Source: Deltaproteobacteria bacterium | Lineage (GTDB): Bacteria > Desulfobacterota > Dissulfuribacteria > Dissulfuribacterales > QOAL01 | Length of the DNA stretch: 64,000 nt | NCBI GenBank assembly: GCA_015493475.1 | Contig: WGDC01000001.1 | Coordinates: 12,968-76,967 of the forward strand | Direction: 5' to 3' | Shown: positions 12,843 to 35,614 of the stretch, in pieces | Numbering within the stretch: position 1 is the stretch's first letter | How the letters are laid out: the number at the start of each line of letters is the position of its first letter | The notes under the pieces: generated by a model | What the model was told of the DNA's origin: nothing | Database searches by the model: none | What the model saw: only the letters and a program-made list of their open reading frames with translations | Position numbers and translations under genes: made by a program

Positions 12843-14102
12843 TCACGCCCTCTTGAATATCAATACGCCGTTGGTACCACCAAAGCCGAAGGAGTTACTC
12901 ATTGCGGTGTGAATATCCATCTTTCTCGCCTCGTTGGGCACGTAATCTAGGTCGCACTCGGGATCCGGATGCTCATAGTTGATGGTTGGAGGCACAACCC
13001 CGTCCTCTAAGGCCTTTACGCTAAATACGGCCTCAACCCCGCCTGCACCGCCGAGGAGATGGCCGGTCATGGACTTGGTGGAACTTACGGGGATCTTGTA
13101 CGCATATTCACCAAATACTGCCTTTATGGCCTTTGTTTCGCAGCTGTCGTTTAGCGGAGTACTGGTACCGTGGGCATTTATATAGTCAATGTCCTGCGGT
13201 GTCATGCAAGCGTCCTTAAGCGCCTCCTTCATGGCCCGGGCCCCTCCCTCGCCGTCGTCGGGAGGCGCGGTCATGTGAAAAGCGTCGCCGCTCAGGCCGA
13301 ACCCGCCGATTTCAGCCCTTATCCTTGCCCCACGTCTTTCCGCATGATCGAGGCTTTCAATAATCAGAATGCCGGCACCCTCACCGATGACAAAGCCATC
13401 ACGGTCCCGCTCGAAGGGACGCGATGCCCTGTCAGGTTCTTCATTCCTTGTGGACAGGGCCTTGAGAGACGCAAATCCGGCCAGGGCAAGCTCGGTAATC
13501 ACTGCCTCGGTGCCTCCGCAGAACATTATATCTGCCGCACCCCTTTGTATCTCTTTGAATGCCTGGCCAATGGCATGGGTGCCTGCCGCACACGCGGTGC
13601 AAACCACCGTGTTGGGGCCCTTGGCATTAAACAATATGGAAATCTGTCCTGACGCCATGTTTGGGATAGCCATAGGAATAAAAAAGGGACTCACCCGTCT
13701 CGGCCCTCTGTTGACCAAGATATCCCTGAAATATTCTATGGAGCTTAACCCGCCAAGACCGCAGCCTGTGATGACACCTATTCTCTCCGGGTCAGCGGTG
13801 CTGGAATCGAGGCCGGAATCCTCCCAGGCCTCCTTTGAAGCAACAATTGCATACTGAACAAATGGATCAAGCCTCTTTACGAGCTTTGCATTAATGAACC
13901 GTTCCGGCTCGAAATCCTTAACCTCGCCTGCAATGCGGCAGCTATAACCTTTGGTGTCAAATTTAGTGACCGGACCTATGCCCGATCTGCCGGATACTAT
14001 ATTATCCCAGCCCTCCTTGACCCCAATTCCTACCGGGGACACCAGACCAAGACCAGTCACAACAACCCTGCGGCTACAATCTTGTGCGCCCATAAAAGTC
14101 AC
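12843..14102 (-). CDS. fabF: 3-oxoacyl-ACP synthase II
   Basis: [13 protein letters not shown]...[13 protein letters not shown] (active-site Cys)...NAHGTSTP...[12 protein letters not shown]. Confidence 0.95.
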
Positions 14103-14114
14103 TTTTCCTAATCC

Positions 14115-14351
14115 CTATTTTCCCATGTGCTGTTTCACATAATCTATGGTGTCCTGCACGGTCTGGAGCTTTTCGGCATCTTCGTCGGCTATTTCCATCC
14201 CATATTCCTCTTCCATGGCCATGACAAGCTCCACGAGATCAAGGCTGTCTGCACCGAGATCATCAGTGAACGATGCCTGGGGTACGACCTTCTCCTTCGG
14301 AACGCTAAGCTGGCTCGAGATTATCTCAATAATTTTTTCCTGAACATCCAT
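14115..14351 (-). CDS. acpP: acyl carrier protein
   Basis: [15 protein letters not shown]...[20 protein letters not shown] contains the DSL phosphopantetheine site. The ATG at 14351 is preferred to the ORF-track start at 14402. Confidence 0.95.
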
Positions 14352-14373
14352 TTTTGTTTCCTCCTGTATATCC

Positions 14374-15129
14374 TTATTGGCAGACAAGCCCGCCGTTAAC
14401 ATGCAAGGTATGCCCCGTTATGTAGGCGGCATCCTCAGACGCCAGAAAAGACACGGCTGCCGCGACCTCGTGGGGCTGCCCCATCCTGCCAAGTGGAATC
14501 TCTCCAATAAGGCGCTCCTTTATTTTATCGGGCAAAACCGCCGTCATGTCTGTTTCTATAAAACCAGGTGCTACAAGATTCACGGTAATGCCCCGGGAGG
14601 CCATCTCCTTGGCAACGGTCTTGGTTAAACCGGCAAGACCCGCCTTCGCAGCAGCGTAGTTGGCCTGCCCTGGGTTCCCAGAGACGCCGACAACTGAACC
14701 TATGTTAATGATCCTGCCCCACCTGGCCTTCATCATGGCCATGGCGCAGGCCTGCATACAGTTAAAGGCCCCCTTGAGATTAACTGAGACGACCTTATCC
14801 CAGTCCGACTCCTTCATCCTTGCAACAAGGGCGTCCCTTGTTATCCCTGCATTGTTTACAAGTATCTGGATAGGGCCGTTTTCCTTTATGAAACCCGATA
14901 CCTTTTCCTTGACAGAAGATGCATCCGATACGTCAAAGGGAAGAAGTGAACCGCTTCCTCCCTGGGCCTCAACCCTGTCAAGGACTTCCATGGCTGCGTC
15001 CTCGTTTGACGCATAGTTTATGATTACGTGAGCACCATCCCCGGCAAGCTTGAGGCAAATGGCCCTTCCAATGCCCCTTGAGCCTCCCGTGATCAGTGCA
15101 TTTTTTCCTTTCAGCCTTTTTTCACACAT
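14374..15129 (-). CDS. fabG: 3-oxoacyl-ACP reductase
   Basis: [14 protein letters not shown]...NNAG...[20 protein letters not shown] (SDR YxxxK)...HVNGG. Confidence 0.93.
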
Positions 15130-16330
15130 CCTTTATCCCGCGCTCCTCGCTAACTTTCCTTATCAGGGCAGGGAGCACCTCCCTAACATCCCCTACTATA
15201 GCATAGGTGGCAACATCGAATATGGGGGCATCCTTATCCTTGTTTATGGCTACAATGATGTCAGACCCCTGCATACCTACAAGATGCTGAATGGCTCCGC
15301 TTACGCCGCAGGCTATGTAGAGCCTCGGAGAAACCGTCACACCTGTTTGCCCGATTTGGTGATTTGCGGAGATCCACCCGGCCTCTGTCACAGCCCTCGT
15401 CGCACCAATGCCCGCATCAAGGCAGTGAGCCAGCCTTTCCACGAGATGCAGATTCTCCTTCTGCTCAAGTCCCCTTCCTGCAGTAACAACTATTTCCGCA
15501 TCGGTAAGCCCGGGCCCGTCAGACTCCTCTGTAACCGACTCAACAACCTTGACCCTGTGCTCAAGAAGCTCAGCAGAAGGCTCAAACTCCACGATTTCTC
15601 CCTGCCTCGACTCATCAGGCTCCAGGGCCTTCAGGACATGAGGGCGTACCGTGGCCATCTGAGGCCTGTGTTCATCGCATATTATAGTGGCCATAAGATT
15701 CCCTCCAAAGGCGGGACGAGTCTGAAGGAGGTTCCTGCCTTCTTCCTCTATCTTAAGACCCGTGCAGTCGGCGGTAAGCCCTGTCTCGAGCATGGTGGCT
15801 ACCTGGGGAATAAAAGCCCTGCCCATGGCGGTAGCACCAGCAAGGATAATCTCTGGCCGTTCTTTCCTTGCAAGATGGGAGACTATCTTTGAATACGCCT
15901 CGTCCACGAAGTTTGAAAGCCCTGGATGGTCCACCACTATTACCCTGTCTGCACCCCTTGCCACAAGATCAGGAGCCATCTCCTTCACCGCACTGCCGAG
16001 AACCACTGCCGTGACAGGCACAGAAAGCCTATCCGCAAGCTGGCGCGCCTTTCCCAGAAGTTCAAAGGTAACCGGAGCAAAACCGTTTCCCCTTACCTCT
16101 GCCACCACCCAGACGCCGCTCCATGCGCTAAAATCCTGCTTTTCCTTCCCGGGACCCTCCGATTCCATCTCCAGGGCCTCTTCCGGACATGTATCCACAC
16201 AGGTACCGCACAAAGAACAAAGCTCCGGGTCCACTTTTGCCTTATCATCAAGAACGGTAATGGCCCCAAAGCTGCATACCTCTTCACATTCGCCGCAGCC
16301 AGTGCATTTTTCAATATCTACCTTCAGCAT
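15122..16330 (-). CDS. etfA: electron transfer flavoprotein alpha subunit with N-terminal 2x[4Fe-4S] ferredoxin domain
   Basis: N-terminus: CTGCGECEEVC and CSLCGTCVDTCP. C-terminus: PRLYIACGVSGAIQHLVGMQGSDIIVAINKDKDAPIF (EtfA FAD motif). Confidence 0.87.
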   Translation of the reverse strand: MLKVDIEKCTGCGECEEVCSFGAITVLDDKAKVDPELCSLCGTCVDTCPEEALEMESEGPGKEKQDFSAWSGVWVVAEVRGNGFAPVTFELLGKARQLADRLSVPVTAVVLGSAVKEMAPDLVARGADRVIVVDHPGLSNFVDEAYSKIVSHLARKERPEIILAGATAMGRAFIPQVATMLETGLTADCTGLKIEEEGRNLLQTRPAFGGNLMATIICDEHRPQMATVRPHVLKALEPDESRQGEIVEFEPSAELLEHRVKVVESVTEESDGPGLTDAEIVVTAGRGLEQKENLHLVERLAHCLDAGIGATRAVTEAGWISANHQIGQTGVTVSPRLYIACGVSGAIQHLVGMQGSDIIVAINKDKDAPIFDVATYAIVGDVREVLPALIRKVSEERGIKDV

Positions 16331-17118
16331 CAGATGATTCCCGCCTCTTTCAACCTCTCCACCAAGGCATCGGCCTGCTCTTCAGCTCCCCCTTCTATGA
16401 ACTCGCGCCTCGCCTCAAACTTCGGGATAAATGTAGAGTAAACCTTTGTTGGAGAACCCGACAGGCCGATTTTGTCTAAGCTAGCATCGATGTCCGATGC
16501 GCTCCACAAGGGGACCTCGGCCTTTTTGGCCCTCATCTTTCCCTTAAGCGACGGCACTCTCGGCGTATTCAAGGAAGAAAGCACGGTAACAACCACGGGA
16601 AATTCCACCTCAACCACGTCGAAACCGTGCTCAGATATGCGTCTGATTCTGAGTCCCCTTTCCCCGTCTAGGATATCCATCTGGCTCGCGTACGTAACAC
16701 ATGGGAAGCGTAGTCGAACCGCAAGCCCGGGACCCACCTGGGCTGTATCGCCGTCAATAGCCTGTTTCCCGCAAAATACAACGTCCACGTCGCCGAGCTT
16801 TTTAATAGCCTGTGCAAGAGTGTAGGTGGTTGCAAGTGTGTCAGCCCCTGCAAAGGCCCTGTCAGACACAACCACGCCGCCATCCACGCCCATTGACATG
16901 GCCTCACGAATGGCTTCCTGGGCCTGGGGGGGACCCATTGTAACCGCTATCACCTTTCCACCAAGCTCGTCCTTCAGCGTAAGGGCAGCCTCGATGGCAT
17001 GGTAGTCAAAGGGGTTAATAACGCTCTTTACGCCATCTCTTATGAGTGTCCCTGTCTTGTGATCCCACTTGACACTCTCCGCATCTGGGACCTGTTTTAT
17101 GCAAACTACTATATCCAT
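16330..17118 (-). CDS. etfB: electron transfer flavoprotein beta subunit (carries the DGDTAQVGP motif associated with bifurcating Etf)
   Basis: MDIVVCIKQVPD...VFCGKQAIDGDTAQVGPGLA. The stop overlaps the etfA start. Confidence 0.9.
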   Translation of the reverse strand: MDIVVCIKQVPDAESVKWDHKTGTLIRDGVKSVINPFDYHAIEAALTLKDELGGKVIAVTMGPPQAQEAIREAMSMGVDGGVVVSDRAFAGADTLATTYTLAQAIKKLGDVDVVFCGKQAIDGDTAQVGPGLAVRLRFPCVTYASQMDILDGERGLRIRRISEHGFDVVEVEFPVVVTVLSSLNTPRVPSLKGKMRAKKAEVPLWSASDIDASLDKIGLSGSPTKVYSTFIPKFEARREFIEGGAEEQADALVERLKEAGII

Positions 17119-17123
17119 TTGTC

Positions 17124-18287
17124 CTATCTTCTTGCATACTCCTTGTTGAGGGCCTGACCTATGACGTTTCTTTGTATCTGATTGGTGCCCTCGTATATCT
17201 GGAGTATCTTTGCATCCCGCATCATCTTCTCCACAGGATAATCCTTCATGTACCCGTAACCGCCAAGTATCTGTACCGCATCTGTTGTCACCTTCATAGC
17301 TACATCTGTCGGAAACAGCTTCGCCATGGCGGATATCTTGGAAATGTCCTTTTCACCTGAGTCTATCGTGCGCGCCACAGAATAAACAAGCGCCCGCGCC
17401 GCCTCTATGTGGGTGGCCATGTCGGCAAGCATATGCTGTATAGCCTGAAATGATATGATTGGCTGCCCGAACTGGACGCGTTGACGCGCATAGGTGGCCG
17501 ACTCGTCAAGGGCTGCCTGGGAAAGCCCCACGCCAATGGCACCGATTCCTGGACGGGCTAGGTCCAAAGTCTTCATGGCGATTATAAAACCAAGCCCCCT
17601 CCTGCCTAGCAACCTGTCCTTTGGGATGCGGCAGTCGTTGAACACGAGCTCCCTAGTGGCCGAGGCACGAAGCCCCATCTTCTTCTCCTTCTTACCAAAG
17701 GTGAAACCATCGTCTCCCTTTTCCAATATAAAGGCAGAAGCACCTCTGGCGCCCTTATTTTTATCCGTAAGCGCTATAATGGTGTAAATTTCCGCTTCTC
17801 CGCCGCTCGTAATCCACTGTTTTGTCCCGTTCAGCACCCAGTAGTCACCATCCTCAACGGCGGTCGTCTTTATGGCTGCCGCGTCACTGCCGGCTCCTGC
17901 CTCTGTAAGGCCAAAAGCTGCAAGCCTTGCACCAGAAGCAATATCAGGCAGGTACCTCTTTTTCTGCCCCTCTGTACCGTACATAACAATGGGATATCCA
18001 CCAAGTGCGCTTGCAGCAAAAGTAGTTGTTACAGCGATACATCCATAGGCGAGCTGCTCTACTGCTATGCAGTTTTCAAAGCAGCCTCCCCCGAGACCTC
18101 CAAACTCTTCGGGAATATAGAGGCCGAACAGGTCCGCCTGAGCCAGGTCCTTCATGATGTCCCATGGAAACTCCTCGGTTTCATCGAGCCTTGCCCGAAC
18201 AGGTATGATCTTTTCGTGCGCGATCTGCCTTGCCAGATCCACAATCATCTGCTGTTCTTCAGTGAGAAAATAGTTTACGTTTGACAT
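17124..18287 (-). CDS. acyl-CoA dehydrogenase (short-chain/butyryl-CoA dehydrogenase-like)
   Basis: FGLTEAGAGSDAAA...WITSGG...QILGGYGYMKDYPVEKMMRDAKILQIYEGTNQIQ contains the catalytic Glu context. Confidence 0.9.
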   Translation of the reverse strand: MSNVNYFLTEEQQMIVDLARQIAHEKIIPVRARLDETEEFPWDIMKDLAQADLFGLYIPEEFGGLGGGCFENCIAVEQLAYGCIAVTTTFAASALGGYPIVMYGTEGQKKRYLPDIASGARLAAFGLTEAGAGSDAAAIKTTAVEDGDYWVLNGTKQWITSGGEAEIYTIIALTDKNKGARGASAFILEKGDDGFTFGKKEKKMGLRASATRELVFNDCRIPKDRLLGRRGLGFIIAMKTLDLARPGIGAIGVGLSQAALDESATYARQRVQFGQPIISFQAIQHMLADMATHIEAARALVYSVARTIDSGEKDISKISAMAKLFPTDVAMKVTTDAVQILGGYGYMKDYPVEKMMRDAKILQIYEGTNQIQRNVIGQALNKEYARR

Positions 18288-18320
18288 TAAAAGCCCTCTC
18301 CTTCCTTTAAGAACTGCAAA

Positions 18321-19304
18321 TTACCAGCTCATGGTGACACCAGCCCAGGTAAAACCGCCTCCGAAAGAAACCAGCAGCACCTTGTCCCCGGCCATCAGTC
18401 TGCCTTGCCGATTGGCCTCATCAAGGGCTATGGGTATACTCGCCGCTGAGGTATTACCATACTTGTGGATATTGATAAAGACCTTGTCCCTCGGCAAAGA
18501 AAGCCTTTCTCTCAGGTGTTCCAGTATCCTTATATTCGCCTGATGGGCTATGAGAAGATCTATCTCTTCCATGGACCATCCTGATGCATCAACCGCCTCT
18601 AAGGCTACCGATTCCAGGGCCTTTACCGCGTGCTTGAACACGTCTCTTCCCTGCATCTCTATGTATTGCCAACCCTTTTCAAGAATGGAAGCGTCAACCG
18701 GATGCGCAGTGCCAAGCCCTCTTATGGTAAGAAGTTCCCACAGGGTTCCATCCGCATGCAAACAGGTAGAGACAATGCCCCTTTCGCCTTCTCCACCTGT
18801 TACTACCGCCGCCCCTGCCCCGTCTGCAAAGAGCACACACGTGGTCCTGTCCCGCCAGTTGGTCCTTCTTGAAAGGACCTCGCTTCCTATGACCAAGACC
18901 TTCATGTCGGGCTCAGATCTCACGAACTTGTCTGCTATGGATAGCCCGTAAAGAAAACCGGAACATGTAGCTGATACATCCATGGCGCCTGCCTTTTTAG
19001 CACCCAAAGCCTGCTGCACAAGGCAGGCTACAGATGGCATAGGCATGTCCGGGCTAAGCGTTCCCACTATTATCAGGCCGAGGTCATCAGGAGAAATCGT
19101 AGCCATTTTAAGGGCTGCCCTTGCTGCCCCTACGGCCAGATCAGAATTATTTTCTCCCTGCTCCACTATATGCCTTTCCTTTATGCCGGTCCTTGTAGTT
19201 ATCCACTCGTCGCTGGTATCGATAATTTTCTCAAGGTCCTTGTTCGTTAGCACCTTTTCAGGCACACACGATCCGGTTCCCACGATTTTTGCCCTAATTG
19301 TCAT
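18321..19304 (-). CDS. fabH: 3-oxoacyl-ACP synthase III
   Basis: GTGSCVPEKVLTN...DVSATCSGFLYGL (active Cys)...AHQANIRI...GNTSAASIP. Confidence 0.95.
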   Translation of the reverse strand: MTIRAKIVGTGSCVPEKVLTNKDLEKIIDTSDEWITTRTGIKERHIVEQGENNSDLAVGAARAALKMATISPDDLGLIIVGTLSPDMPMPSVACLVQQALGAKKAGAMDVSATCSGFLYGLSIADKFVRSEPDMKVLVIGSEVLSRRTNWRDRTTCVLFADGAGAAVVTGGEGERGIVSTCLHADGTLWELLTIRGLGTAHPVDASILEKGWQYIEMQGRDVFKHAVKALESVALEAVDASGWSMEEIDLLIAHQANIRILEHLRERLSLPRDKVFINIHKYGNTSAASIPIALDEANRQGRLMAGDKVLLVSFGGGFTWAGVTMSW

Positions 19305-19313
19305 GATTGAAAA

Positions 19314-20324
19314 TTAAATAATCCTGAGAACGTCTTTGCGGTTCGACATCGAGGCCTCGAGTTTCTCGGCAAGCTTTAGGGATGCCAGATTGTAAGCCAC
19401 ACCTATGGCGTTCATAACAGCCTTTGGCTCCGAGCTTCCATGGCAAATTATCGCCGTCCCGCCAACGCCGAGCAGCGGCGCGCCACCATACTCCGCGTAG
19501 TCCACTCTCTTTTTGAACCTCTTGAAGGCCTTCTTTGCCAAACCGTAACCCATGGTAGCTAGCAGGTTCCCTTCTATCTCGTTTCTGAGCATTGCTATCA
19601 CGGACTCTGCAAGACCCTCACTGAGTTTCAGACAGATATTGCCTACGAAGCCGTCGCACACAATTACGTCCACCTCTCCCCTGAAAACGTCCCTGCCCTC
19701 TACATTTCCACAAAAATTAAGATTACTGGTATCCAATAGATCGTAGGCCTTTTTTACCTGGGTATTTCCCTTACGTCCCTCCTCTCCTATGCTTAAAAGG
19801 CCTACCCTCGGACGTTCCTTTATCAGGAACTCCCTTACAAAAAGCGAGCCCATTATGCCGAACTGGAGGAGATGATGAGGCTTGCAATCTACGTTGGCCC
19901 CTACGTCTATCAGAAGGGCGGGTTCCCTAAGTGTGGGGATCAGGGTGGCAATGGCTGGCCTGACGCCCTTAATACGGCCAAGGATGAACATGGCCGTCGC
20001 AAGAGTCGCCCCTGAATTCCCGGCGCTCACAACACCTTGCGCCTTGCCGGCCCTGACGAGATCAAAGGCCACCCTTACAGAAGAATCCTTTTTGCGCCTC
20101 AAGGCGTCGGCGGGAGACTCAGCCATGCCGACCACCTCGGATGCGTGTTCAATCGTAATGGGCAGCTTCTCTATGGATGGAACAGTTGACAGCGCCTCTT
20201 CCAGGATATCCTTCTTTCCAACAAGGATTATCTCAGTCCCATGTTGCATAGCCGCCAACACCGCTCCCTTGACAAGGGGTAAAGGCCCCTTGTCACCGCC
20301 CATGGCATCAAGCGCAATAATCAT
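19314..20324 (-). CDS. plsX: phosphate acyltransferase PlsX
   Basis: MIIALDAMGGDKGP...SAGNSGA...GAPLLGVGG..ICHGSS. Confidence 0.95.
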   Translation of the reverse strand: MIIALDAMGGDKGPLPLVKGAVLAAMQHGTEIILVGKKDILEEALSTVPSIEKLPITIEHASEVVGMAESPADALRRKKDSSVRVAFDLVRAGKAQGVVSAGNSGATLATAMFILGRIKGVRPAIATLIPTLREPALLIDVGANVDCKPHHLLQFGIMGSLFVREFLIKERPRVGLLSIGEEGRKGNTQVKKAYDLLDTSNLNFCGNVEGRDVFRGEVDVIVCDGFVGNICLKLSEGLAESVIAMLRNEIEGNLLATMGYGLAKKAFKRFKKRVDYAEYGGAPLLGVGGTAIICHGSSEPKAVMNAIGVAYNLASLKLAEKLEASMSNRKDVLRII

Positions 20325-20332
20325 ATACCTTC

Positions 20333-20515
20333 CTATTCTACATTCTCTCCGGTAAATACCTTACCCTTGTAGGTTCCACAATGGGGACATATCCTGTGCG
20401 GGGCCTTTGGCTCTGCGCACTGGGGACACAAGGAAACAGCGGGTTTCTTAAGGGAATCGTGGGAACGCCTGTTACCCCTTCTTGCCCTCGATATTTTTCT
20501 TTTTGGAACAGCCAT
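20333..20515 (-). CDS. rpmF: 50S ribosomal protein L32
   Basis: [20 protein letters not shown]...[18 protein letters not shown]. Confidence 0.95.
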
Positions 20516-20547
20516 ATTCTATTTTCCTCCATTTATAAAAAAATGTT

Positions 20548-21084
20548 TTATCGAGATACCTTTAACACGGCAAGTGCTGCAAACGGGCCATCATTTACCT
20601 GCCTTGAGCAACTGCACTGCGCTTCGTTCAAATTTATACCGCAACTTGGACATAGCCCCTTGCAACTTTCACTGCATAGCATACGCATGGGGAGCTGCAA
20701 GATTATCTGCTCCCTGAATATTTCCTCACCCCTTATCTCCCCATCCTCATACCAGTATACATCTACTTCGTCGTGTGAAAGCCGGTGATCCGTTTCAAGG
20801 CCCGCGCCAAAATCCTTTCTAGGCTGCAAAAGGTAAAAAAAGGAAGTTTCCACGTTCTTGTGAAACCTGCCAAGGCACCTATCGCATGTGAGAAGCACCC
20901 TGCTCTTAACCGACCCCCTGACCTCAATATTGTTACCGGACTTGTGAATCTCAAGACGGCCTTTGGTATTCCCGATCTTTACGAACCCATCTACTTCGGG
21001 AATGACATGAGAAAGCTCAGAGAAATTTAAATAAAGCCCCTCTTCAGGGACATCAGCTACCTGAATACGCGTTTCTATCTGCAT
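20548..21084 (-). CDS. yceD: YceD/DUF177 family protein
   Basis: 178 aa with LTCDRCLGRF...CSESCKGLCPSCGINLN Cys motifs. Conserved position upstream of rpmF. Confidence 0.85.
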   Translation of the reverse strand: MQIETRIQVADVPEEGLYLNFSELSHVIPEVDGFVKIGNTKGRLEIHKSGNNIEVRGSVKSRVLLTCDRCLGRFHKNVETSFFYLLQPRKDFGAGLETDHRLSHDEVDVYWYEDGEIRGEEIFREQIILQLPMRMLCSESCKGLCPSCGINLNEAQCSCSRQVNDGPFAALAVLKVSR

Positions 21085-21191
21085 GTTTTCGAGTTTTTGC
21101 CCCTTGGCAAAAAACAGCTATTCCGAGTTTTTTAGAAAAACCACAATATATGGATTGGGGCGTGATTGTCAAGTAACGAGTGACTCAAAAC

Positions 21192-25390: not shown

Positions 25391-27004
25391 TCAGGAAATC
25401 GGGAATTGATACAAACGGGTCTTCCAGCCCCCTTTTGTCTTGTCGGTAACCCCAATTATAATCCCTTCCCGCGTCATTGACACTCCGCACAGGGTACCCC
25501 TGAGACCGGAATCGGCTCTGAAAAACTCGTAACCGCCTGACAATGGAAAATAGAACAGGCCGTTGAGACCCTTTCCCTTTTCTTCGGGAATGACACCGTT
25601 AAAAAGTATCCCGCGGCCCAGGATCAAAAAATCCGCCTTTGCGGGCCCGCAGCATGGCCTGTCTGCCACCACTGGGAAAAGCGATGTCCACTGGTGGGAA
25701 CCGTTGGCATAGACCTTGAAAAAACCGTCAAAGCTTACATAGAAAAGTGTGCATGTACCGTTTACAGACTGGGCATCCGTGCTTGCTATGCTGAAATCGT
25801 TTGGAAACTCCTGCTGTTCCAAATATTCAATCCCGCTGTCGGTAGGCTTCAAGGAAAATACACGCTGGCCCCTGAAACGTTCCTTTTCATATTCCTGCCC
25901 CATAAGCTCGGGGCCGGCCTGCCCGCATCGAGTTCGCGCAAAGGAAAGCCACAGGTTTATCTCGTCCTGGACCAGGTGCAGCCGCCCGGCCCTGTAACTG
26001 AAAAGCTTCGATGTAAGGCCAGCGCCTTTTATGGCAACGTTAATCACAATCCATCCCCTTGAAAATGAAAGGCCACAGGGACATTCAAAATCGCCGAACC
26101 GGTAAAATTCCGCCCGGCCCCTGCGCCTGTATGGAGCCACTCCTACCTCGTTTTCCATCAGGTAGACAATCTCCTCCTGCCCGTCGCCGTCCAAGTCTGC
26201 CACTGCCACCTGAAGTACCTTTCCATTAAGCGTGCCCACGACTTTGGCCCTGGAAAAATCAAAAGAAAAGGGGGCCGGGGCCACCCTTGTTTCTATCAGG
26301 CTTGGCCTTTTCTCTGCCTTCTCCATAACGCTTTCCCCGGCAGAAGGTACCTTGTACACGGAAAACTCCTCCATGTCTGGACCGTAAACGTGAAGCGAGT
26401 CGTCCTGAAGGTCAAACATAAGGTCTATGCCAAAGGCCTCCATGGAACTTTTTGTCGGCACTGGCACCGGACCGCTTGACGGCTCTACCCAGTCGAGGTT
26501 TGGAAGAAGCTTGCGAAGGGAATAGCTGGAAAAAACAGGGGAGACGAGCCTTCCATCTATGAAGAGAGCCGCCCTCATACCTGTAAATCTCATGGCCTCC
26601 AAGCGGGGAGGCAACTTGCGGGAGCTCGAATAGACGGTACAGGCAGAGGAAGCGGGCGTGACCCGTGTAACCCTGCACTTTCCAACAACCTTGTCCTGGT
26701 AACCCAACACCCTTTTAGTGCCGGGCACATAAATAGGCATTCCCTTATCCACAAGGGCAAAAAGGTCTCCCGGCCTTACGCTCGAACGAGATCCCCTATC
26801 AAGGACGAACTGTTCCTCGCCGCTCTTCATAGCCATAGCAATGACGGGGCGAAAATCCACGGCGAGCTGCCTGAGCTGCTGAGCAGCCCCTGCATCAACC
26901 GGGCAATGCGCAATCAACGCGAAAACGAGAAAAAAGAGGACGCGCCGTAGTTTTACGGGGCAAACAGGGGCTGTCCGTTCCGGTGGGCTTTTATATGCAG
27001 CCAT
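25391..27004 (-). CDS. secreted hypothetical protein with FG-GAP/VCBS-like motif
   Basis: Signal-like VLFFLVFALIAHCPVDAGAA. VAVADLDGDGQEEIVY is an FG-GAP-type Ca-binding loop. The start at ATG 27004 is preferred to the ORF-track start at 27115. Function unknown. Confidence 0.5.
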   Translation of the reverse strand: MAAYKSPPERTAPVCPVKLRRVLFFLVFALIAHCPVDAGAAQQLRQLAVDFRPVIAMAMKSGEEQFVLDRGSRSSVRPGDLFALVDKGMPIYVPGTKRVLGYQDKVVGKCRVTRVTPASSACTVYSSSRKLPPRLEAMRFTGMRAALFIDGRLVSPVFSSYSLRKLLPNLDWVEPSSGPVPVPTKSSMEAFGIDLMFDLQDDSLHVYGPDMEEFSVYKVPSAGESVMEKAEKRPSLIETRVAPAPFSFDFSRAKVVGTLNGKVLQVAVADLDGDGQEEIVYLMENEVGVAPYRRRGRAEFYRFGDFECPCGLSFSRGWIVINVAIKGAGLTSKLFSYRAGRLHLVQDEINLWLSFARTRCGQAGPELMGQEYEKERFRGQRVFSLKPTDSGIEYLEQQEFPNDFSIASTDAQSVNGTCTLFYVSFDGFFKVYANGSHQWTSLFPVVADRPCCGPAKADFLILGRGILFNGVIPEEKGKGLNGLFYFPLSGGYEFFRADSGLRGTLCGVSMTREGIIIGVTDKTKGGWKTRLYQFPIS

Positions 27005-27260
27005 AGAAATAAGGGTCCAAGAGAAACAGATTGAGACTCCTGAAAATCTGTCTTTTTTATCCAATGACTTAGTTATATTTGCGAAAAAAACGGTCAAACA
27101 CCTTGAACATTTCACACTTTTCCGCTCAAGCAGGGCTTGATCTCGAAAAAGGTGCTTTTCTAATGTCTCCAGTTGCCACAGAGTATCCTGAGCGAAAATT
27201 TAACAGCCAATATAACAAGACGGGGAAAAAAGGAAACAAAAAGGTATATGGGGATGGGTA

Positions 27261-30240: not shown

Positions 30241-33200
30241 CTACTGCCTGAGAACAGCAATGCGCCTTAGGTACTCTAAGGTCATAGAATCTGCCCCAGA
30301 ACCAAGAAAATCGTAAAGGGGACCCTGGAAAAGCAGCCTTCCACCACGCCTCCCTCCACCCGGACCAAGATCAATAATCCAGTCCGACCCCGCTATCATG
30401 GAGAGATTGTGCTCTACAACGACTACCGTGTTGCCGAGCCCGGCAAGCCTTGTCAGGCAAGCAGAAAGCCTTTGCACATCCTCCATGTGGAGGCCGACAC
30501 TCGGCTCATCGAGAAGGTACAGCCTTGCCTGGGTAACGGTCTTGGACAGCTCCTTTGCTATCTTGAGTCTCTGGGCCTCGCCTCCCGAAAGGGACGGGCT
30601 TGGCTGGCCAAGGCGCAGGTAGCATAGCCCGAGGTCTTTCATCACCATGAGTCCCCTCTTTATGGCAGGAACGGTGCCGAAAAATTCAAGGGCCTCGGAA
30701 ACGGTCATATCAAGAATCTGGCTTATGTCCCGTGATTTCCACCGTATGGACAGGACCTCTTGTCTGAATCTTTTGCCGAGGCAGACAGGACACTTGACAT
30801 AAACGTCTGGAAGTATGCCGAGTCTTTGCCTTAGCTGACCTTGGCCCCTGCATTCGGGACATGCCCCCTGTGTCGTGTTAAAGGAAAAGTGCGAGGGGCC
30901 AAACCCCCTTACCCGTGCGGCCGGCGTACATGAAAAAAGCTTGCGGATATAGGAAAATATCCCAATGAACGTGGCCGGACAGGACCTCGGCGTCCTGCCA
31001 ATAGGACCGTGGTCAACGTAAAGAGCACCACTTACCGCCTCGGCTCTTCTTATTCCTTTGATACATAAAACATCCCCTTCCACTGCCCCCTGTAACGCCT
31101 CCATGAGGCTGGTTTTCCCGGAGCCGGATACTCCGGTGAATACGGTTACCGCGCCAATGGGTATCATGGCGTCGATGGCCGAAAGGTTATGCCTGCTTAC
31201 ACCACGGAGCTCGAGAAAATCCGTGTCGGACCCAAGCCTCCTGCTTCTCTCAATGACGGCCTTTCCATGCCTTAATCCCCTTGCGGTCCTCGATTCGGGA
31301 TGTTTCAAAAGCCCCTCCACGTCGCCCGAGTAAATCACCCTCCCCCCCTGACTTCCTCCCCCGGGACCAAGATCCACCACGAAATCAGCATGGAGGATAG
31401 TCTCTTCATCATGCTCTACAACTATCACGCTGTTGCCCCTGCGTGACAGGTCCTTGAGAATATGGACAAGACGCCGGTTGTCAGAAGGATGCAGGCCTAT
31501 AGTCGGCTCATCAAGTACAACGGTAATACCCGTAAGACTCGATGCGCTTTGTGAGGCAAGGCTGACCCTCTGGGCCTCTCCACCTGAAAGGCTGTCCCCC
31601 GACCTGTCCAGGCCGAGATACCCGAGGCCCAGTTCAGACATCAGCCTGAGCCTCTCCATGACCTGGCCGGTGAGCATCATAAGCAGATCTTTCCTTTCCA
31701 CCTGGAACTTCTTCACAGAACGCCAGTCCTCAAGACGCCCCATAGCCTCGTCCACCTCCATCCTGAAAAACGACGCAATATCAAGGCCGTTTATTTGCCA
31801 GGACAGGGCATATTTGGAAAGCCTTGCCCCCATGCATACAGAACAGGCGTCTTCATTGCCATTCCTGCCAGTTCCGAGACATGCCGGGCATCTGCCCACC
31901 TTGCTATGAAAGGAAAAGAGAAGGGGATCCGGATCCTCCAAGGACACATGGCACTCGGGGCAGAAGTACCTGATGCTGAACCACCTCTTTCCAACACCGG
32001 GGAAGAGACAAAATACAGTACCCCGCCCAGCCCTGACAGCCGCAGACAGGACCTGTCTAAACTCCTTAACGGAGACGCCTTCTCTGAAAGGTCCCCAGAC
32101 CCAGGAGACATCGTGTTCCGTGTACATAGAGATAGACAGCTCCTGGCCACGTTGAAAGAGCCTGTCATCCACAAGCACGAAATCCGCCCCGGCAGCAAAC
32201 CCCATTTCAACCTCCCGCCGGTGCCTGCCTTTTCTGTGACGAACACGGGGCGCCCCGATGTAGAAGGCATCTGCGCCAAGAAGCCTCTCAATCCCCTTTT
32301 CTATCTGGTCCATGTTCGCATGGCCCATGGGCATGGAGCACTCGGGACAGACAGGACTCGAGCAATGGGCATAAAGGAGCCTCATGTAATGGGCCGTCTC
32401 CGATAGAGTCGCCACCGTTGACATGGGGCTTCCTCTGCAAGCCCTCTGTTCTATGGCAACCGATGGGCTTAGTCCCCTAACCTCGTCTGCGTCAACCCTT
32501 TCATGAAGCCTCACGAACTGCTTCATGTAGGAAGGGAGGCTTTCCATGTAGCGCCTCTGGGCTTCCTTATAAATGAGGTCAAATGCCATGGACGATTTAC
32601 CGGATCCGGAAACCCCAGTCACTACAACGAGCCTGTTCCTTGGTATCTTGATGTCTATGTTTTTGAGGTTATGATGCCTTGCCCCCTTTATCTCGATAAC
32701 ATTACCAGACTGCCCCCTGCCTTTTCTCTCCATCTTCCCTGCTTGGCACTGCCCGTCCCTTCCTGAGCCGCCGTATTCCCGAATGGCCCGGGCTGTTGGC
32801 GTATCCTCATTGAGAAGCCATTCAGGGCTACCCTGAAAGAGCAGGTAACCGCCATTATCTCCACCCCCTGGGCCAAGCTCAATAACCTGGTCGGATGAAA
32901 GAATGGTCGAGAGATCATGCTCCACCACCACCACGGTATGGCCGTGACGACAAAGGCCCCTTACCTGCCTTATAAGGCCCTGCACCTCGGTATGGTAAAG
33001 CCCCATGGTCGGTTCATCAAGAATGAACAGGCACCTGCCTTTCCCAGAAATGAGGTGCCTTGCTATCTTAAGCCTTTGGGAATCACCTGCGGAAAGGGTG
33101 TTAAGGGGCTGGCCGAGAAGCAGATGGCCAAGGCCGAGTTCAAGGGCAGGGCCAAGGATCTTTGCCACCGCCCTTTGGCTGCCAAGGGCACCCGCCACCT

Positions 33201-35475
33201 CGGAAAGGGTCATCTCAAGCCACTCGTTCATATTTTTACCCTTCAGCCTTATCTCAAGTGCCCTATCAGAAAACCTTCTTCCCTTACAGTCGGCGCAAGG
33301 CACCATGACATCGGGCAAAAACTGCATGTCAAGAAGCTCGTAACCCTGCCCGCCGCAGCTCTGGCACCTGCCTCCAACAACATTGAGAGAAAAATAGCCG
33401 GGCCTGAGCCCGAGGGATATCGCCTTCCGGGTTTTGGAAAAGAGCCTCCTAAGCGGATCAAGGATCTTGAGATAGGTTCCCGGACAACCTCGCGGGGTTC
33501 TCGAGGCAGGCTCCTGATCTATAAAGACCACAGAGTCAAATGGCTCGGGTATGATTATGGACTTAAACCTCCCGGGCTCGGAACAGGGCCGCCCCATCAT
33601 CCTTAAAAGCCCCCTGTAGATGCACTGCTCAACGAGGGTGGACTTTCCAGAGCCGGACACCCCGCAGACGCACGTCACCATCCCCATCGGGATTCGGCAC
33701 GTTATGTCTTTCAGGTTATTCTCGGTAAGCCCCCTGATCTCAAGAAAACTCGGGGAACCATCCATTGGCCGTCTCCCCTTGATAGCTACTGCATGAGGCG
33801 GCTCCAGCGTGTCTTGGGAAGGATGGCCCTCCGCAACCACGCGGCCTCCGTGCCTCCCGGACCCAGGACCCAGGTGGATAATCCTGTTTGCGCACCGGGC
33901 CATTAAGGGATCGTTCTCTGTCATCAGAACGGTATTGCCTGATTTCCTCAAGCCCTCAATTACTTCCCTTACGCCCTTAACGTCTGCGGGGTGAAGCCCA
34001 GAAGAAGGCTCATCTATACAATAAAGGGTCGCGGAAAGATTTGCGGATACGCCCTTTGCGATACAGAGCCGGGAAAGCTCCCCGCCCGAAAGGGTGCGCG
34101 AGCGCCTGTGAAGGGCAAGGTAGCCAAGGCCCGCCTGCCTTATTAAGGAAAGCCTCCTTTCAAGGTCTTGGAGCAGGGAACGGGAGGCCTCATCAAGACC
34201 CTCCCGTTCCCCGAGCCCCCTGCACCATTTAAGGGCGTCATGGACACTTAGCGCATAAAACCCGGCTATACTCAACCCTGAAAGCCTGTAGGACAGGGCC
34301 TCCTCGTTAAACCTAGCCCCCTTGCAGGAAGGACAAATATTGTATGCCCTGTATCTTGAAAGCAGAATTCGTATGTGGGCCTTGTATCTTTTTGATTCAA
34401 GCCGGCGAAAAATCTCCCTTACGCCGTACCACTCCTCCTTTCCAAAGAGGATGGCGTCTCTGTCCTGCTGGGAAAGCTCCCTCCAGGGCCTCGTGGCATC
34501 CATGCCCCACTTGCTACAGCAGGCGAGGAGAAACTCCTTTTCATCCTCCCAGTTTTCAAGGGGTCTTATTGCCCCTTCAATGACAGAGAGTGACTTGTCA
34601 GGAATCACTATGTCATAATCTATGTCCATTACCCTTCCGAAACCGCTACATGATGGGCACGCCCCCTCTACGGAATTGAACGAAAAAAGAAGCATTCCCG
34701 GAGGTTTCTTTTCGGTCCCGCACTCCGGACATACAGCCCCTTCGTGAAAGGCCCTTGTCTCCACCTTTCCGCCATCCGCGGGGAACACCGCGTACAGACT
34801 CCCGCCCGAAAGGCTGAAGGCGGTCTCAACCGCCTCCTTGACCCGCTGAATAGAAAGGGATTTAAGGGATAGTCTTTCAATAATCACGTAATGATTCTTG
34901 TGATCCGAAAGCCGCCGTACATCTACCTCGGACCCGTCCACCACACGGCCGTCCACAAGAATGCGCCTGTAGCCTTCCCCCACGAGGTCGTCGAGACGCT
35001 GAGCCCCTGCCTCTATACAGATGTAGCCGCAGGTGAAACCATTGCAGGCCGCCTCCTTGAAACAGTCAAACACGTCCTTTGGGCCGCACCGTCTTACCGG
35101 CACCCGGCAGCGTGTACAATAACCCGTGGCGTTTCTGAAAAAGAGCATCCTTGCCGGAAAGCTTACCTCGGAAAGAGTGGCCACTGTTGACCGGGAATTT
35201 CTCACCGGGTTGGACTGACCCACACCTATGGCAGCGGGAAGATTTTCCACCCGCCGTACCCTCGGCCTCGGTAGCCTTTCTAGAAACTGGCGCACATAGG
35301 GAGAAAAGGTCTCCATGAACTGTCTCTGGGCCTCACAGTAAATGGTGTCAAAGACAAGCGAGGACTTTCCTGAGCCGGAAGGACCGCAGAATGCGCAAAT
35401 GGAACCAGCCTCTATCTCAAGGTCGACGTCCTTCAGGTTGTGCTCCATGGCTCCGCTGATAATTAGGGCCTTCAT
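30241..35475 (-). CDS. tandem-duplicated UvrA-like ABC ATPase (two UvrA units, four nucleotide-binding domains, in one 1744-aa polypeptide)
   Basis: Walker A x4 ([36 protein letters not shown]). ABC signatures x4 ([36 protein letters not shown]). Walker B x4. UvrA zinc modules (CPECG...[15 protein letters not shown] and [20 protein letters not shown]). The second unit starts near 32700 ([15 protein letters not shown]). The ATG at 35475 ([17 protein letters not shown]) is preferred over the ORF-track start at 35721. Confidence 0.9.
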
Positions 35476-35614
35476 GGGAAAAGAAGATAAGACATGCTGG
35501 ATTTTCCTCAAGGCCCGGCAGGCGCGCAAGCGTTCGATGGCAGCTCCGAAACCTTTATGTAAAAGTGATTGCATGATAAGCTTACGTCTATTCCCGTCAA
35601 AAAGGAGAAAACTC

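What the first reader, a model, noticed from the sequence alone, without database searches (positions are those of the whole stretch)
12843..21084. Fatty-acid synthesis cluster in which fabD is replaced by an acyl-CoA dehydrogenase plus ferredoxin-fused, bifurcating-type EtfBA
Seen in sequence: the minus-strand order is yceD-rpmF-plsX-fabH-[acyl-CoA dehydrogenase]-[etfB]-[etfA]-fabG-acpP-fabF, with short gaps or overlaps throughout. No malonyl-CoA:ACP transacylase (GHSLGE motif) is present in the window. EtfB has the ...GKQAIDGDTAQVGP motif, and EtfA has an N-terminal 2x[4Fe-4S] ferredoxin domain.

Established knowledge: the canonical order is rpmF-plsX-fabH-fabD-fabG-acpP-fabF. Bcd/EtfAB complexes with a second FAD on EtfB carry out flavin-based electron bifurcation, and they run physiologically in the enoyl-CoA reducing direction. 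Ferredoxin-domain EtfA subunits occur in the Acetobacterium CarE/LctC type.

Inference: an Acd-Etf module embedded in the fab operon could supply the enoyl-thioester reduction step (no fabI/K/L/V is seen here), or it could couple fatty-acid metabolism to ferredoxin. fabD must be encoded elsewhere.
Basis: partly seen in the sequence, partly recalled or inferred. Interest (0 to 1): 0.55.

Follow-up and report, generated by a model that had tools for sequence, protein, structure and literature searches.

The report
Flavoprotein reductase inside fatty-acid synthesis operon
This sulfur-cycle anaerobe has no recognisable enzyme for the last step of each fatty-acid building cycle, but its fatty-acid operon holds the genome's only acyl-CoA-dehydrogenase/electron-transfer-flavoprotein set, which probably does that step and may recover energy as reduced ferredoxin.

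Summary
The minus strand reads yceD-rpmF-plsX-fabH-acd-etfB-etfA-fabG-acpP-fabF, with 1- and 8-nt overlaps at etfB/etfA and etfA/fabG. fabD lies on another contig.

New for this genome (2.43 Mb, 99.8% complete):
- These are its only Acd, EtfB and EtfA.
- No crotonase or 3-hydroxyacyl-CoA dehydrogenase reaches the Pfam cut-off.
- No FabI, FabK, FabV or MDR-type reductase was found.
- The one FabK-like gene is a FabX orthologue, keeping the catalytic His and four Cys.
- The Etf is CarDE-like, of the bifurcating type.

In 251 genomes of the phylum, 127 carry a 58-84% identical Acd orthologue. It sat among fab-operon genes in every locus sampled from that set. Only 2 of 37 FabI genomes have it. 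Forty-two genomes have it and no FabI, FabI-like, FabK-like, FabV or FabX-like gene.

Best reading (about 0.55): it is the enoyl-ACP reductase, possibly NADH-driven and ferredoxin-reducing. No biochemistry exists and the ACP substrate is unproven.

Caveats: a conserved second SDR with a YxxxN motif is unexplained, and FabK-like genes co-occur with the orthologue in 52 genomes.

This scan has noted the same module on other DNA (52 notes). I found no paper describing it.

The parts
21145..21172 (-). Best promoter-like site (TTGACA-16-TATATT, 11 of 12), about 60 nt upstream of yceD. It is a candidate operon promoter.
   Evidence: This is a consensus match only; the total number of such sites in the region is not above the shuffle expectation.
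20548..21084 (-). yceD (23S rRNA accumulation protein family), first gene of the string
   Evidence: PF02620, 90.7 bits
20333..20515 (-). rpmF, ribosomal protein L32
   Evidence: TIGR01031, 79.7 bits, over the cut-off
19314..20324 (-). plsX, phosphate acyltransferase
   Evidence: TIGR00182, 354.9 bits, over the cut-off
18321..19304 (-). fabH, beta-ketoacyl-ACP synthase III
   Evidence: NF006829, 426.8 bits, over the cut-off
17124..18287 (-). acd, an acyl-CoA-dehydrogenase-family flavoenzyme and the candidate enoyl-thioester reductase. It is the only ACAD in the genome. The catalytic Glu366 lies in IYEGT.
   Evidence: Pfam ACAD N, M and C domains. Below every NCBIfam equivalog cut-off (best AcrC, 444.6 against 640). 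Best PDB matches 3pfd and 5ol2_C. Sole ACAD in the genome. E366 is invariant in 26 orthologues.
16330..17118 (-). etfB, small Etf subunit of the bifurcating type; the only EtfB in the genome
   Evidence: PF01012. PDB: CarD 6fah_B 243 bits, 4kpu_B 224, 7koe_A 222 and 5ol2_B 222, against human ETF-beta at 104. Sole copy.
15122..16330 (-). etfA, large Etf subunit with an N-terminal 2x[4Fe-4S] ferredoxin domain (about residues 1-66, nt 16133-16330). It overlaps fabG by 8 nt.
   Evidence: Fer4 x2, ETF and ETF_alpha domains. Full-length match to CarE 6fah_A, 382 bits. Overlaps read.
14374..15129 (-). fabG, 3-oxoacyl-ACP reductase
   Evidence: TIGR01830, 342 bits, over the cut-off
14115..14351 (-). 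acpP, acyl carrier protein (78 aa; DSL phosphopantetheine site)
   Evidence: TIGR00517, 104.4 bits; sequence
12843..14102 (-). fabF, beta-ketoacyl-ACP synthase II; followed by rpiB and glyA
   Evidence: TIGR03150, 653.4 bits; downstream genes

Best explanation
[quoted passage not shown] It is this organism's enoyl-ACP reductase, standing in for FabI, FabK, FabL or FabV.

Proposed mechanism, by analogy with CarCDE and Bcd-EtfAB:
1. NADH reduces the FAD on EtfB.
2. One electron passes through the EtfA FAD to the Acd FAD, which reduces trans-2-enoyl-ACP to acyl-ACP. Glu366 acts as the acid/base.
3. The other, low-potential electron leaves through the [4Fe-4S] domain of EtfA to ferredoxin.

The overall reaction would be 2 NADH + Fd(ox) + enoyl-ACP -> 2 NAD+ + Fd(red) + acyl-ACP, so part of the large free energy of enoyl reduction would be recovered.

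Shown here: gene order, translational coupling, uniqueness in the genome, absence of known reductases and of beta-oxidation partners, Etf type, and phylum-wide conservation and distribution.

Inferred: the role in fatty-acid synthesis, the ACP-bound substrate, the direction of the reaction, and bifurcation.
For: 1. Operon structure. The module lies between fabH and fabG with a 33-nt RBS-bearing spacer and 1-nt and 8-nt overlaps. No promoter- or terminator-like site lies in the gaps that flank the module.

2. Uniqueness. These are the genome's only ACAD, EtfB and EtfA.

3. No CoA pathway to serve. Crotonase scores 19.7 bits and 3-hydroxyacyl-CoA dehydrogenase 19.6 bits, both below cut-off, while the controls ring.

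4. The rest of the pathway is complete:
- fabD;
- fabZ within lpxD-fabZ-lpxA;
- a fused AccA-AccD next to a biotin carboxylase.

5. No known enoyl-ACP reductase was found:
- E. coli FabI hits only FabG, at 8e-8, and nothing at 1e-10;
- the best TIGR03151 (FabK) score is 126 bits against a cut-off of 453;
- no FabV (the search was validated by the G147 hit);
- no MDR-type reductase over the cut-off.

6. The one NMO-family gene is a FabX orthologue. It scores 290 bits to 7e1q against 87 bits to FabK, and keeps the catalytic His and four Cys.

7. EtfB and EtfA score about twice as high to bifurcating Etfs as to non-bifurcating ones. EtfA matches CarE over its full length, including the ferredoxin domain.

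8. Distribution in 251 genomes of the phylum:
- identities are bimodal, with 127 genomes holding an orthologue of at least 58% identity and paralogues at 54% or less;
- only 2 of 37 FabI genomes have the orthologue;
- 64 orthologue genomes have no FabI, FabI-like, FabK-like or FabV gene, and 42 of these also lack a FabX-like gene;
- G104, a complete 1.6-Mb genome, has a single SDR in total.

9. Synteny. The orthologue sits among fab-operon genes (fabH or plsX upstream, etfBA or fabG downstream) in all 30 loci from the phylum set, and among fab genes in 61 of 80 named loci.

10. Constraint. Acd is the most conserved protein of the operon, at a median 73% identity against 53-67% for the others.
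Against: - No biochemical, genetic or expression data exist for any member. No RNA run could be listed.
- By sequence the Acd is an ordinary Bcd- or SCAD-like ACAD. Nothing I could test shows that it takes ACP rather than CoA thioesters.
- FabK-like genes (E<=1e-50) co-occur with the orthologue in 52 of 127 genomes, and FabI-like SDRs in 18. One locus (L133) has a FabK-like gene in the same operon. The module is therefore not a simple replacement everywhere.
- Nineteen Nitrospirota loci hold a 70% identical orthologue outside any fab context.
- All eight genomes of this order keep a second SDR of unknown function.
- Two relatives have acd next to fabD-fabG without an adjacent etf.
- The genome lists behind the tallies were copied by hand from tool tables, so slips of one or two are possible. 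Related genomes are not independent observations.
Confidence: 0.55

Rival explanations
1. The module is a conventional CoA-dependent Bcd/CarC-type complex that merely travels with the fab operon. It might reduce a short enoyl-CoA or serve NADH/ferredoxin balancing. The true enoyl-ACP reductase would then be another, unrecognised protein: the conserved second SDR (C92:34455-35387), or the FabX-like [4Fe-4S] flavoprotein running in reverse with ferredoxin.
For: - The Acd is closest to CoA-dependent enzymes: 5ol2_C, 4l1f and NCBIfam AcrC.
- The second SDR is conserved in all 8 genomes of the order. It is also present in G078 and G206, where neither an Acd orthologue nor a known reductase was found.
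- A FabX-like gene is also present in all 8 genomes of the order.
- Published genome papers read such genes as Bcd/EtfAB (PMC6349859; PMC10553843).
Against: - No crotonase or 3-hydroxyacyl-CoA dehydrogenase is present to make an enoyl-CoA substrate.
- The second SDR has YxxxN-R in place of YxxxK and no Y-x6-8-K. From my own knowledge, YxxxN is the 'complex' SDR motif of ketoreductase domains.
- That SDR is not near fab genes. It is found in only 23 of 251 genomes and is absent from G104 and G009.
- FabX-like genes co-occur with FabI in 20 genomes, as in H. pylori, and are missing from 42 genomes that have the orthologue and no other candidate reductase.
- Translational coupling to fabG, and Acd being the most conserved operon protein, are hard to explain for a passenger.
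Confidence: 0.22
2. The Acd works in the oxidative direction as an acyl-ACP dehydrogenase, with Etf as electron acceptor. It would make trans-2-enoyl-ACP for unsaturated or otherwise modified lipids. This is a 'backtracking' route like FabX, or like MbtN in mycobactin synthesis.
For: - ACAD-family enzymes that act on carrier-protein thioesters exist. MbtN, RedW and PigA appear among the NCBIfam hits, all below cut-off.
- FabX shows that backtracking dehydrogenation is used in unsaturated fatty-acid synthesis (PMC8626469).
- Co-occurrence with FabK-like or FabI-like genes in some genomes would fit an accessory role.
Against: - This genome already has a FabX orthologue for that job.
- This reading leaves the genome, and 42 others, with no enoyl-ACP reductase at all.
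- With a bifurcating-type Etf, oxidation would consume reduced ferredoxin (established knowledge of Bcd-EtfAB reversibility), an odd cost for a biosynthetic operon.
Confidence: 0.1
3. The module is the enoyl-ACP reductase but does not bifurcate. Etf would simply pass electrons from NADH, or from reduced ferredoxin through the [4Fe-4S] domain, to the Acd.
For: - Relatives with acd-fabD-fabG and no adjacent etf show some flexibility in the donor.
- A note from a later check in this scan reports that only a minority of such modules elsewhere have the bifurcating form. That is a lead, not evidence.
- F. nucleatum has a Bcd that works with a canonical Etf (PMC12630350 abstract).
Against: - Here EtfB and EtfA score about twice as high to the five solved bifurcating or confurcating Etfs as to non-bifurcating ones, and keep the AIDGDTAQVGP segment.
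- 48 of 52 related EtfA genes keep the ferredoxin domain.
Confidence: 0.2

Closest known systems
Caffeyl-CoA reductase-Etf complex CarCDE of Acetobacterium woodii (PDB 6FAH)
   Same: The same three-subunit make-up: an ACAD (CarC, 317 bits), EtfB (CarD, 243 bits, the best PDB hit) and EtfA with an N-terminal 2x[4Fe-4S] domain (CarE, 382 bits, full length, the best PDB hit).
   Different: CarCDE reduces an aromatic enoyl-CoA in caffeate respiration. Here the genes lie inside the FAS II operon of a genome with no CoA-pathway partners, and the presumed substrate is enoyl-ACP of all chain lengths.
Butyryl-CoA dehydrogenase/EtfAB (Clostridioides difficile 5OL2; Acidaminococcus fermentans 4KPU and 4L1F)
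   Same: The Acd is closest to these Bcd proteins (5ol2_C 393 bits, 4l1f 372 bits). The catalytic Glu in YEG is kept, and the Etf is of the bifurcating type.
   Different: Those Etf large subunits lack the ferredoxin domain, and the complexes serve butyrate fermentation alongside crotonase, Hbd and thiolase. None of those partner enzymes reaches the cut-off here.
Known enoyl-ACP reductases FabI, FabL and FabV (SDR) and FabK (FMN, NMO family)
   Same: The proposed reaction (trans-2-enoyl-ACP to acyl-ACP), a position in or near fab operons, and near-exclusive distribution with FabI (2 of 37 overlap).
   Different: A different fold (ACAD plus Etf), different cofactors (three FAD plus two [4Fe-4S]) and a three-protein complex. 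It possibly has a second product, reduced ferredoxin. The 2022 review of these reductases does not mention any such type.
ACAD-family enzymes acting on carrier-protein thioesters (MbtN acyl-ACP dehydrogenase; RedW and PigA prolyl-PCP dehydrogenases)
   Same: They set a precedent for an ACAD fold accepting a phosphopantetheine-tethered substrate on a carrier protein. They are homologous at 62-257 bits.
   Different: They run oxidatively in secondary metabolism. All score far below their family cut-offs here.
FabX of Helicobacter pylori (PDB 7E1Q). This concerns the companion gene on contig C56, not the module itself.
   Same: The genome's only NMO-family protein matches FabX over its full length (290 bits) and keeps the catalytic His and the four [4Fe-4S] cysteines.
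   Different: H. pylori pairs FabX with FabI. This genome has no FabI, so FabX would pair with the Acd-Etf module.

Membership tests
Bifurcating ACAD-EtfAB complexes (Bcd-EtfAB, CarCDE) | An ACAD subunit with N, middle and C domains and the catalytic Glu in the YEG motif | tested here: met
   PF02771, PF02770 and PF00441. E366 in IYEGT is invariant in 26 orthologues.
Bifurcating ACAD-EtfAB complexes (Bcd-EtfAB, CarCDE) | An EtfB of the type that binds a second FAD and NADH, closer to bifurcating than to AMP-binding Etfs | tested here: met
   217-243 bits to CarD, 4kpu_B, 7koe_A, 5ol2_B and LctB, against 72-104 bits to the human, Paracoccus, Methylophilus and 5ow0_B Etf chains. The AIDGDTAQVGP segment is shared. 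This rests on similarity only; the paper that defines the motif was not held.
Bifurcating ACAD-EtfAB complexes (Bcd-EtfAB, CarCDE) | An EtfA with an ETF domain and a C-terminal FAD domain; in the CarE/LctC subtype also an N-terminal 2x[4Fe-4S] domain | tested here: met
   PF01012, PF00766 and two Fer4 motifs. Two complete CxxCxxCxxxC motifs align to CarE.
Bifurcating ACAD-EtfAB complexes (Bcd-EtfAB, CarCDE) | NADH-dependent reduction of ferredoxin coupled to reduction of an enoyl-CoA | not testable with these tools
   Needs an anaerobic enzyme assay.
NCBIfam equivalogs AcrC, AcrB and AcrA (acryloyl-CoA reductase) and the EtfB 'exception' model | A whole-protein score over the curated cut-off | tested here: not met
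   444.6 against 640, 236.2 against 475, 335.2 against 600 and 296.6 against 445. The three proteins fall in no named equivalog.
SDR-type enoyl-ACP reductases (FabI, FabL, FabV) | A Rossmann SDR fold with a Y-x6-8-K catalytic pair | tested here: not met
   The module is not an SDR. The genome's SDRs are FabG and a YxxxN-R protein. E. coli FabI finds only FabG. PF12241 (FabV) gives no hit.
FabK (enoyl-ACP reductase II) | An FMN TIM barrel of the NMO family with an NAD(P)H-binding part; TIGR03151 at or above 453.1 bits | tested here: not met
   The best match in the genome is 126 bits. That protein is FabX-like, with a [4Fe-4S] subdomain in place of the NAD(P)H part (PMC8626469).
FabX (decanoyl-ACP dehydrogenase/isomerase), for the gene at C56:40329-41453 | Full-length similarity to H. 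pylori FabX, the catalytic His182 and Cys300, Cys304, Cys308 and Cys320 | tested here: met
   E=2e-85 over residues 11-360. The GGH motif and all four Cys align. Activity was not tested.
Carrier-protein-dependent ACADs (MbtN, RedW, PigA) | A score over the family cut-off, and use of an ACP- or PCP-bound substrate | tested here: not met
   62.1 against 700, 256.9 against 650 and 229.3 against 500. Substrate use cannot be tested here.

The most novel reading that the evidence does not exclude
The ACAD-Etf module is a previously unrecognised class of enoyl-ACP reductase, used by a large share of strictly anaerobic Thermodesulfobacteriota, Nitrospirota and other phyla. It is electron-bifurcating, so each elongation cycle of fatty-acid synthesis would yield reduced ferredoxin instead of wasting the energy of enoyl reduction. 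That would make lipid synthesis partly energy-conserving in organisms living near the thermodynamic limit.
Probability: 0.33. Interest if true: 0.88.

Novelty: new variant of a known kind. Interest (0 to 1): 0.72.

Why it matters
Enoyl-ACP reduction is the committed, pulling step of bacterial fatty-acid synthesis. It is also the target of triclosan, isoniazid and newer FabI and FabK inhibitors.

Only SDR-type (FabI, FabL, FabV) and FMN-type (FabK) enzymes are known for this step. Many anaerobe genomes are therefore left with a gap in the pathway.

If an ACAD-Etf complex fills that gap, three things follow:
- Pathway annotation would be corrected for a large share of this phylum: 127 of 251 sampled genomes carry the orthologue, and 64 of these lack any other candidate.
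- A biosynthetic use of flavin-based electron bifurcation would be shown for the first time in lipid synthesis.
- The energy budget assumed for slow-growing sulfate reducers, sulfur disproportionators and syntrophs would change.

The idea can be tested directly with standard anaerobic enzymology and E. coli fabI(Ts) complementation.

Tried and rejected
- **Complex prediction.** Complex prediction with two Acd copies, two FAD and ACP (alignments A1 and A2) gave no verdict, with a score of 0.00. I do not use it either way.
- **RNA runs.** The look-up of sequencing runs for RNA listed no holder, so operon continuity could not be checked with reads.
- **FabV search.** PF12241 on the own genome alone was uninformative because no control rang. 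The phylum run found FabV in G147, which shows that the search works.
- **Acetyl-CoA carboxylase.** PF01039 found no carboxyltransferase. I rejected 'no acetyl-CoA carboxylase' after E. coli AccA and AccD both hit one fused ORF, C83:19830-22100, next to a biotin carboxylase.
- **Genes after fabF.** I considered that they might be accB and accC. They are rpiB, glyA, a deaminase and a LOG-family gene.
- **The NMO gene as FabK.** Rejected: it scores 290 bits to FabX against 87 bits to FabK.
- **The second SDR as FabI or FabL.** There is no enoyl-ACP reductase among its 60 best PDB hits, no Y-x6-K motif, an uninformative context, and an Atlas hit only to an uncharacterised SDR. It is not fully excluded.
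- **Butyryl-CoA primer supply for FabH.** Rejected: there is no crotonase or Hbd.
- **Literature.** Five searches for an ACAD-Etf enoyl-ACP reductase found none. The Etf classification paper PMC5626958 is not held.

Full report
**1. The observation**

The window's minus strand between 21084 and 12843 holds ten co-directional genes: yceD, rpmF, plsX, fabH, an acyl-CoA dehydrogenase (acd), etfB, etfA, fabG, acpP and fabF (ORFs; Pfam; NCBIfam).
- plsX, fabH, fabG, acpP and fabF all pass their NCBIfam cut-offs.
- The Acd has the three ACAD domains.
- EtfA carries two Fer4 motifs at residues 3-57, ahead of the ETF and ETF_alpha domains.

I read the junctions directly.
- A 33-nt spacer with AAGGAAGGAGAG separates fabH from acd.
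- etfB and etfA share TGATG.
- etfA and fabG share ATGTGTGA.

The best promoter-like site (11 of 12) lies upstream of yceD. No promoter- or terminator-like site lies in the gaps that flank acd-etfBA (these are consensus matches only).

fabD is not in the window. The genome's one match is on contig C8, after murA, moaA and a gcvH-like gene.

**2. What the rest of the genome says**

The window is part of a 2.43-Mb assembly of 99 contigs, 99.8% complete. I called all ORFs and searched them with the window's proteins. The genome has one ACAD, one EtfB and one EtfA, namely those in this operon (confirmed).

Partner enzymes of a CoA pathway are missing.
- Crotonase (PF00378) scores 19.7 bits and 3-hydroxyacyl-CoA dehydrogenase (PF02737) 19.6 bits.
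- Both are below cut-off, while both families ring in 13-14 control genomes.
- So there is no beta-oxidation or butyrate pathway for a Bcd-type enzyme to serve.

Type II fatty-acid synthesis is otherwise complete.
- fabD is present.
- fabZ lies in an lpxD-fabZ-lpxA-lpxI cluster.
- A fused AccA-AccD carboxyltransferase sits next to a biotin carboxylase.

Known enoyl-ACP reductases were not found.
- E. coli FabI hits only FabG, at 8e-8, and nothing at 1e-10.
- The best FabK-model score is 126 bits against a cut-off of 453.
- There is no FabV (the method was validated).
- No MDR-type reductase is over the cut-off.

The one NMO-family gene (C56) is not FabK.
- It matches H. pylori FabX over its full length (290 bits, against 87 bits to FabK).
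- It keeps the catalytic His and the four cysteines that hold the [4Fe-4S] cluster.
- FabX is a decanoyl-ACP dehydrogenase/isomerase for unsaturated fatty acids, and its cluster domain replaces the NAD(P)H part of FabK (PMC8626469).

**3. The type of Etf**

EtfB scores 217-243 bits to the five solved bifurcating or confurcating Etf small subunits: CarD, A. fermentans, T. maritima EtfABCX, C. difficile and LctB. It scores 72-104 bits to non-bifurcating ones. It shares their AIDGDTAQVGP segment.

EtfA matches CarE over its full length, ferredoxin domain included (382 bits). It scores 169 bits to human ETF-alpha.

The Acd is closest to Bcd-type enzymes (3pfd, 5ol2_C, 4l1f) but is below every NCBIfam equivalog cut-off. 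Its catalytic Glu366 (IYEGT) is invariant among 26 orthologues.

**4. Relatives**

In 251 genomes sampled across the phylum, identities to the Acd are bimodal. There are 127 genomes with an orthologue of 58-84% identity, followed by a gap to paralogues at 54% or less.

All 30 fetched loci place the orthologue among fab-operon genes: just downstream of fabH or plsX, and followed by etfB-etfA (or, in two, fabG) wherever the locus reached that far. Ten wider loci give the same full operon. Three variants appear:
- acd-fabD-fabG without an adjacent etf (G047, G075);
- acd-etfBA divergently next to fabF (G104);
- acd-etfBA with no fab gene found in the 16-kb stretch fetched (G030).

A scan of named genomes found orthologues of 69-94% identity in several groups:
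- MAGs labelled Thermodesulfatator, Seep-SRB2, Desulfofervidaceae, Desulfobulbaceae and Syntrophobacteraceae;
- Nitrospirota, specifically Thermodesulfovibrionales.

Of these 80 loci, 61 keep the fab context. The other 19, all Nitrospirota, have the gene away from fab genes, with no fab, plsX or acpP gene in the stretch fetched. Of 52 EtfA genes, 48 keep the ferredoxin domain. Acd is the most conserved protein of the operon, at a median 73% identity against 53-67% for the others.

**5. Distribution against known reductases**

All counts use the same 251 genomes. The lists were copied by hand into scripts 47 and 50.
- FabI (E<=1e-50) is in 37 genomes. Only 2 of them have the Acd orthologue.
- A weaker FabI-like tier (about 30% identity) is in 21 genomes, 18 of them with the orthologue.
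- FabK-like genes (E<=1e-50) are in 126 genomes, 52 with the orthologue. Of the 5 genomes over the FabK cut-off, none has it.
- FabV is in 1 genome.
- FabX-like genes are in 75 genomes, 20 of them together with FabI.
- Sixty-four genomes have the orthologue and none of FabI, FabI-like, FabK-like or FabV. Forty-two of these also lack a FabX-like gene.
- G104, a closed 1.6-Mb genome, has one SDR in total. G009 has only FabG plus a PKS ketoreductase domain. No SDR-type reductase can be hiding in either.
- An EtfB of this type is present in essentially all orthologue genomes.

Related genomes are not independent, so I treat these counts as descriptive.

**6. Loose ends**

All eight genomes of this order also keep a second SDR (here C92:34455-35387).
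- It has YxxxN-R where classical SDRs have YxxxK, and it lacks the Y-x6-8-K of FabI, FabL and FabV.
- From my own knowledge, YxxxN is the 'complex' SDR motif of ketoreductase domains.
- Its neighbours are uninformative.
- It occurs in only 23 of 251 genomes. These include G078 and G206, which have neither the orthologue nor a known reductase.
- It cannot be fully excluded as a reductase.

Co-occurrence with FabK-like and FabI-like genes elsewhere, and one operon (L133) that holds both the module and a FabK-like gene, show that the module is not a strict replacement across all lineages.

**7. Mechanism**

The most economical reading is that Acd-EtfBA is this organism's enoyl-ACP reductase. By analogy with CarCDE and Bcd-EtfAB (established biochemistry), the steps would be:
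1. NADH reduces the FAD on EtfB.
2. One electron goes through the EtfA FAD to the Acd FAD and on to the enoyl thioester.
3. The other electron goes through the [4Fe-4S] domain to ferredoxin.

The role in fatty-acid synthesis, the ACP substrate and bifurcation are all inferences. A complex prediction of Acd with ACP gave no verdict, and no RNA data could be listed.

**8. Novelty**

Five literature searches and a 2022 review of enoyl-ACP reductases gave no description of an ACAD-Etf reductase in fatty-acid synthesis. Published genome papers note such etfAB or Bcd genes only as putative Bcd/EtfAB (PMC10553843; PMC6349859).

This scan has noted the same module in other genomes (52 notes). A later check there warned that its lead organism has FabL and FabI-like genes. 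I tested that point here, and this genome has none. That makes it one of the cleaner cases.

I rate the finding a new variant of a known kind: a CarCDE/Bcd-Etf-type complex recruited to type II fatty-acid synthesis.

Noticed in passing
G000:C56:40329-41453 (locus L003:1450-2577, minus strand): This is a FabX orthologue: 290 bits to H. pylori FabX 7E1Q, with the catalytic His and all four [4Fe-4S] cysteines kept. It sits in a strict anaerobe next to ilvE and a hydrogenase-gamma-like FAD/NAD protein. Its electron acceptor without O2 is unknown. FabX-like genes occur in 75 of 251 genomes of the phylum.
   Followed up: partly
G000:C92:34455-35387 (locus L012:1399-2331, minus strand): This is an uncharacterised SDR with a YxxxN-R active-site motif, an NNIERGGWP segment and a conserved C-terminal extension. 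It is present in all 8 genomes of the order and in 23 of 251 genomes of the phylum. Its function is unknown.
   Followed up: partly
G000:C83:18382-22100: A single 756-aa ORF has an AccA-like N-terminal half and an AccD-like C-terminal half, directly after a biotin-carboxylase-like gene. This looks like a fused acetyl-CoA carboxylase carboxyltransferase. Pfam PF01039 missed it.
   Followed up: partly
G000:C8:43586-44982 (locus L002:7587-8983): fabD starts at the last base of the stop codon of a gcvH-like (lipoyl or biotinyl carrier) gene, downstream of murA and moaA. This is an unusual home for fabD.
   Followed up: no
Loci L117, L125, L136, L148 and 15 others (Nitrospirota, Thermodesulfovibrionales): A 69-73% identical orthologue of the Acd lies away from any fab gene; in L117, the one locus examined, it stands alone among unrelated housekeeping genes. 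Where its Etf partner lies was not examined.
   Followed up: partly
Locus L133:11167-12141: A MAG labelled actinobacterium has a FabK-like NMO gene between acpP and fabF, in the same operon as acd-etfB-etfA-fabD. Both candidate reductase types therefore sit in one operon.
   Followed up: no
window 25391-27115 (-) and 30241-35721 (-): A 574-aa ORF has no Pfam match, and a 1826-aa ORF was not examined.
   Followed up: no
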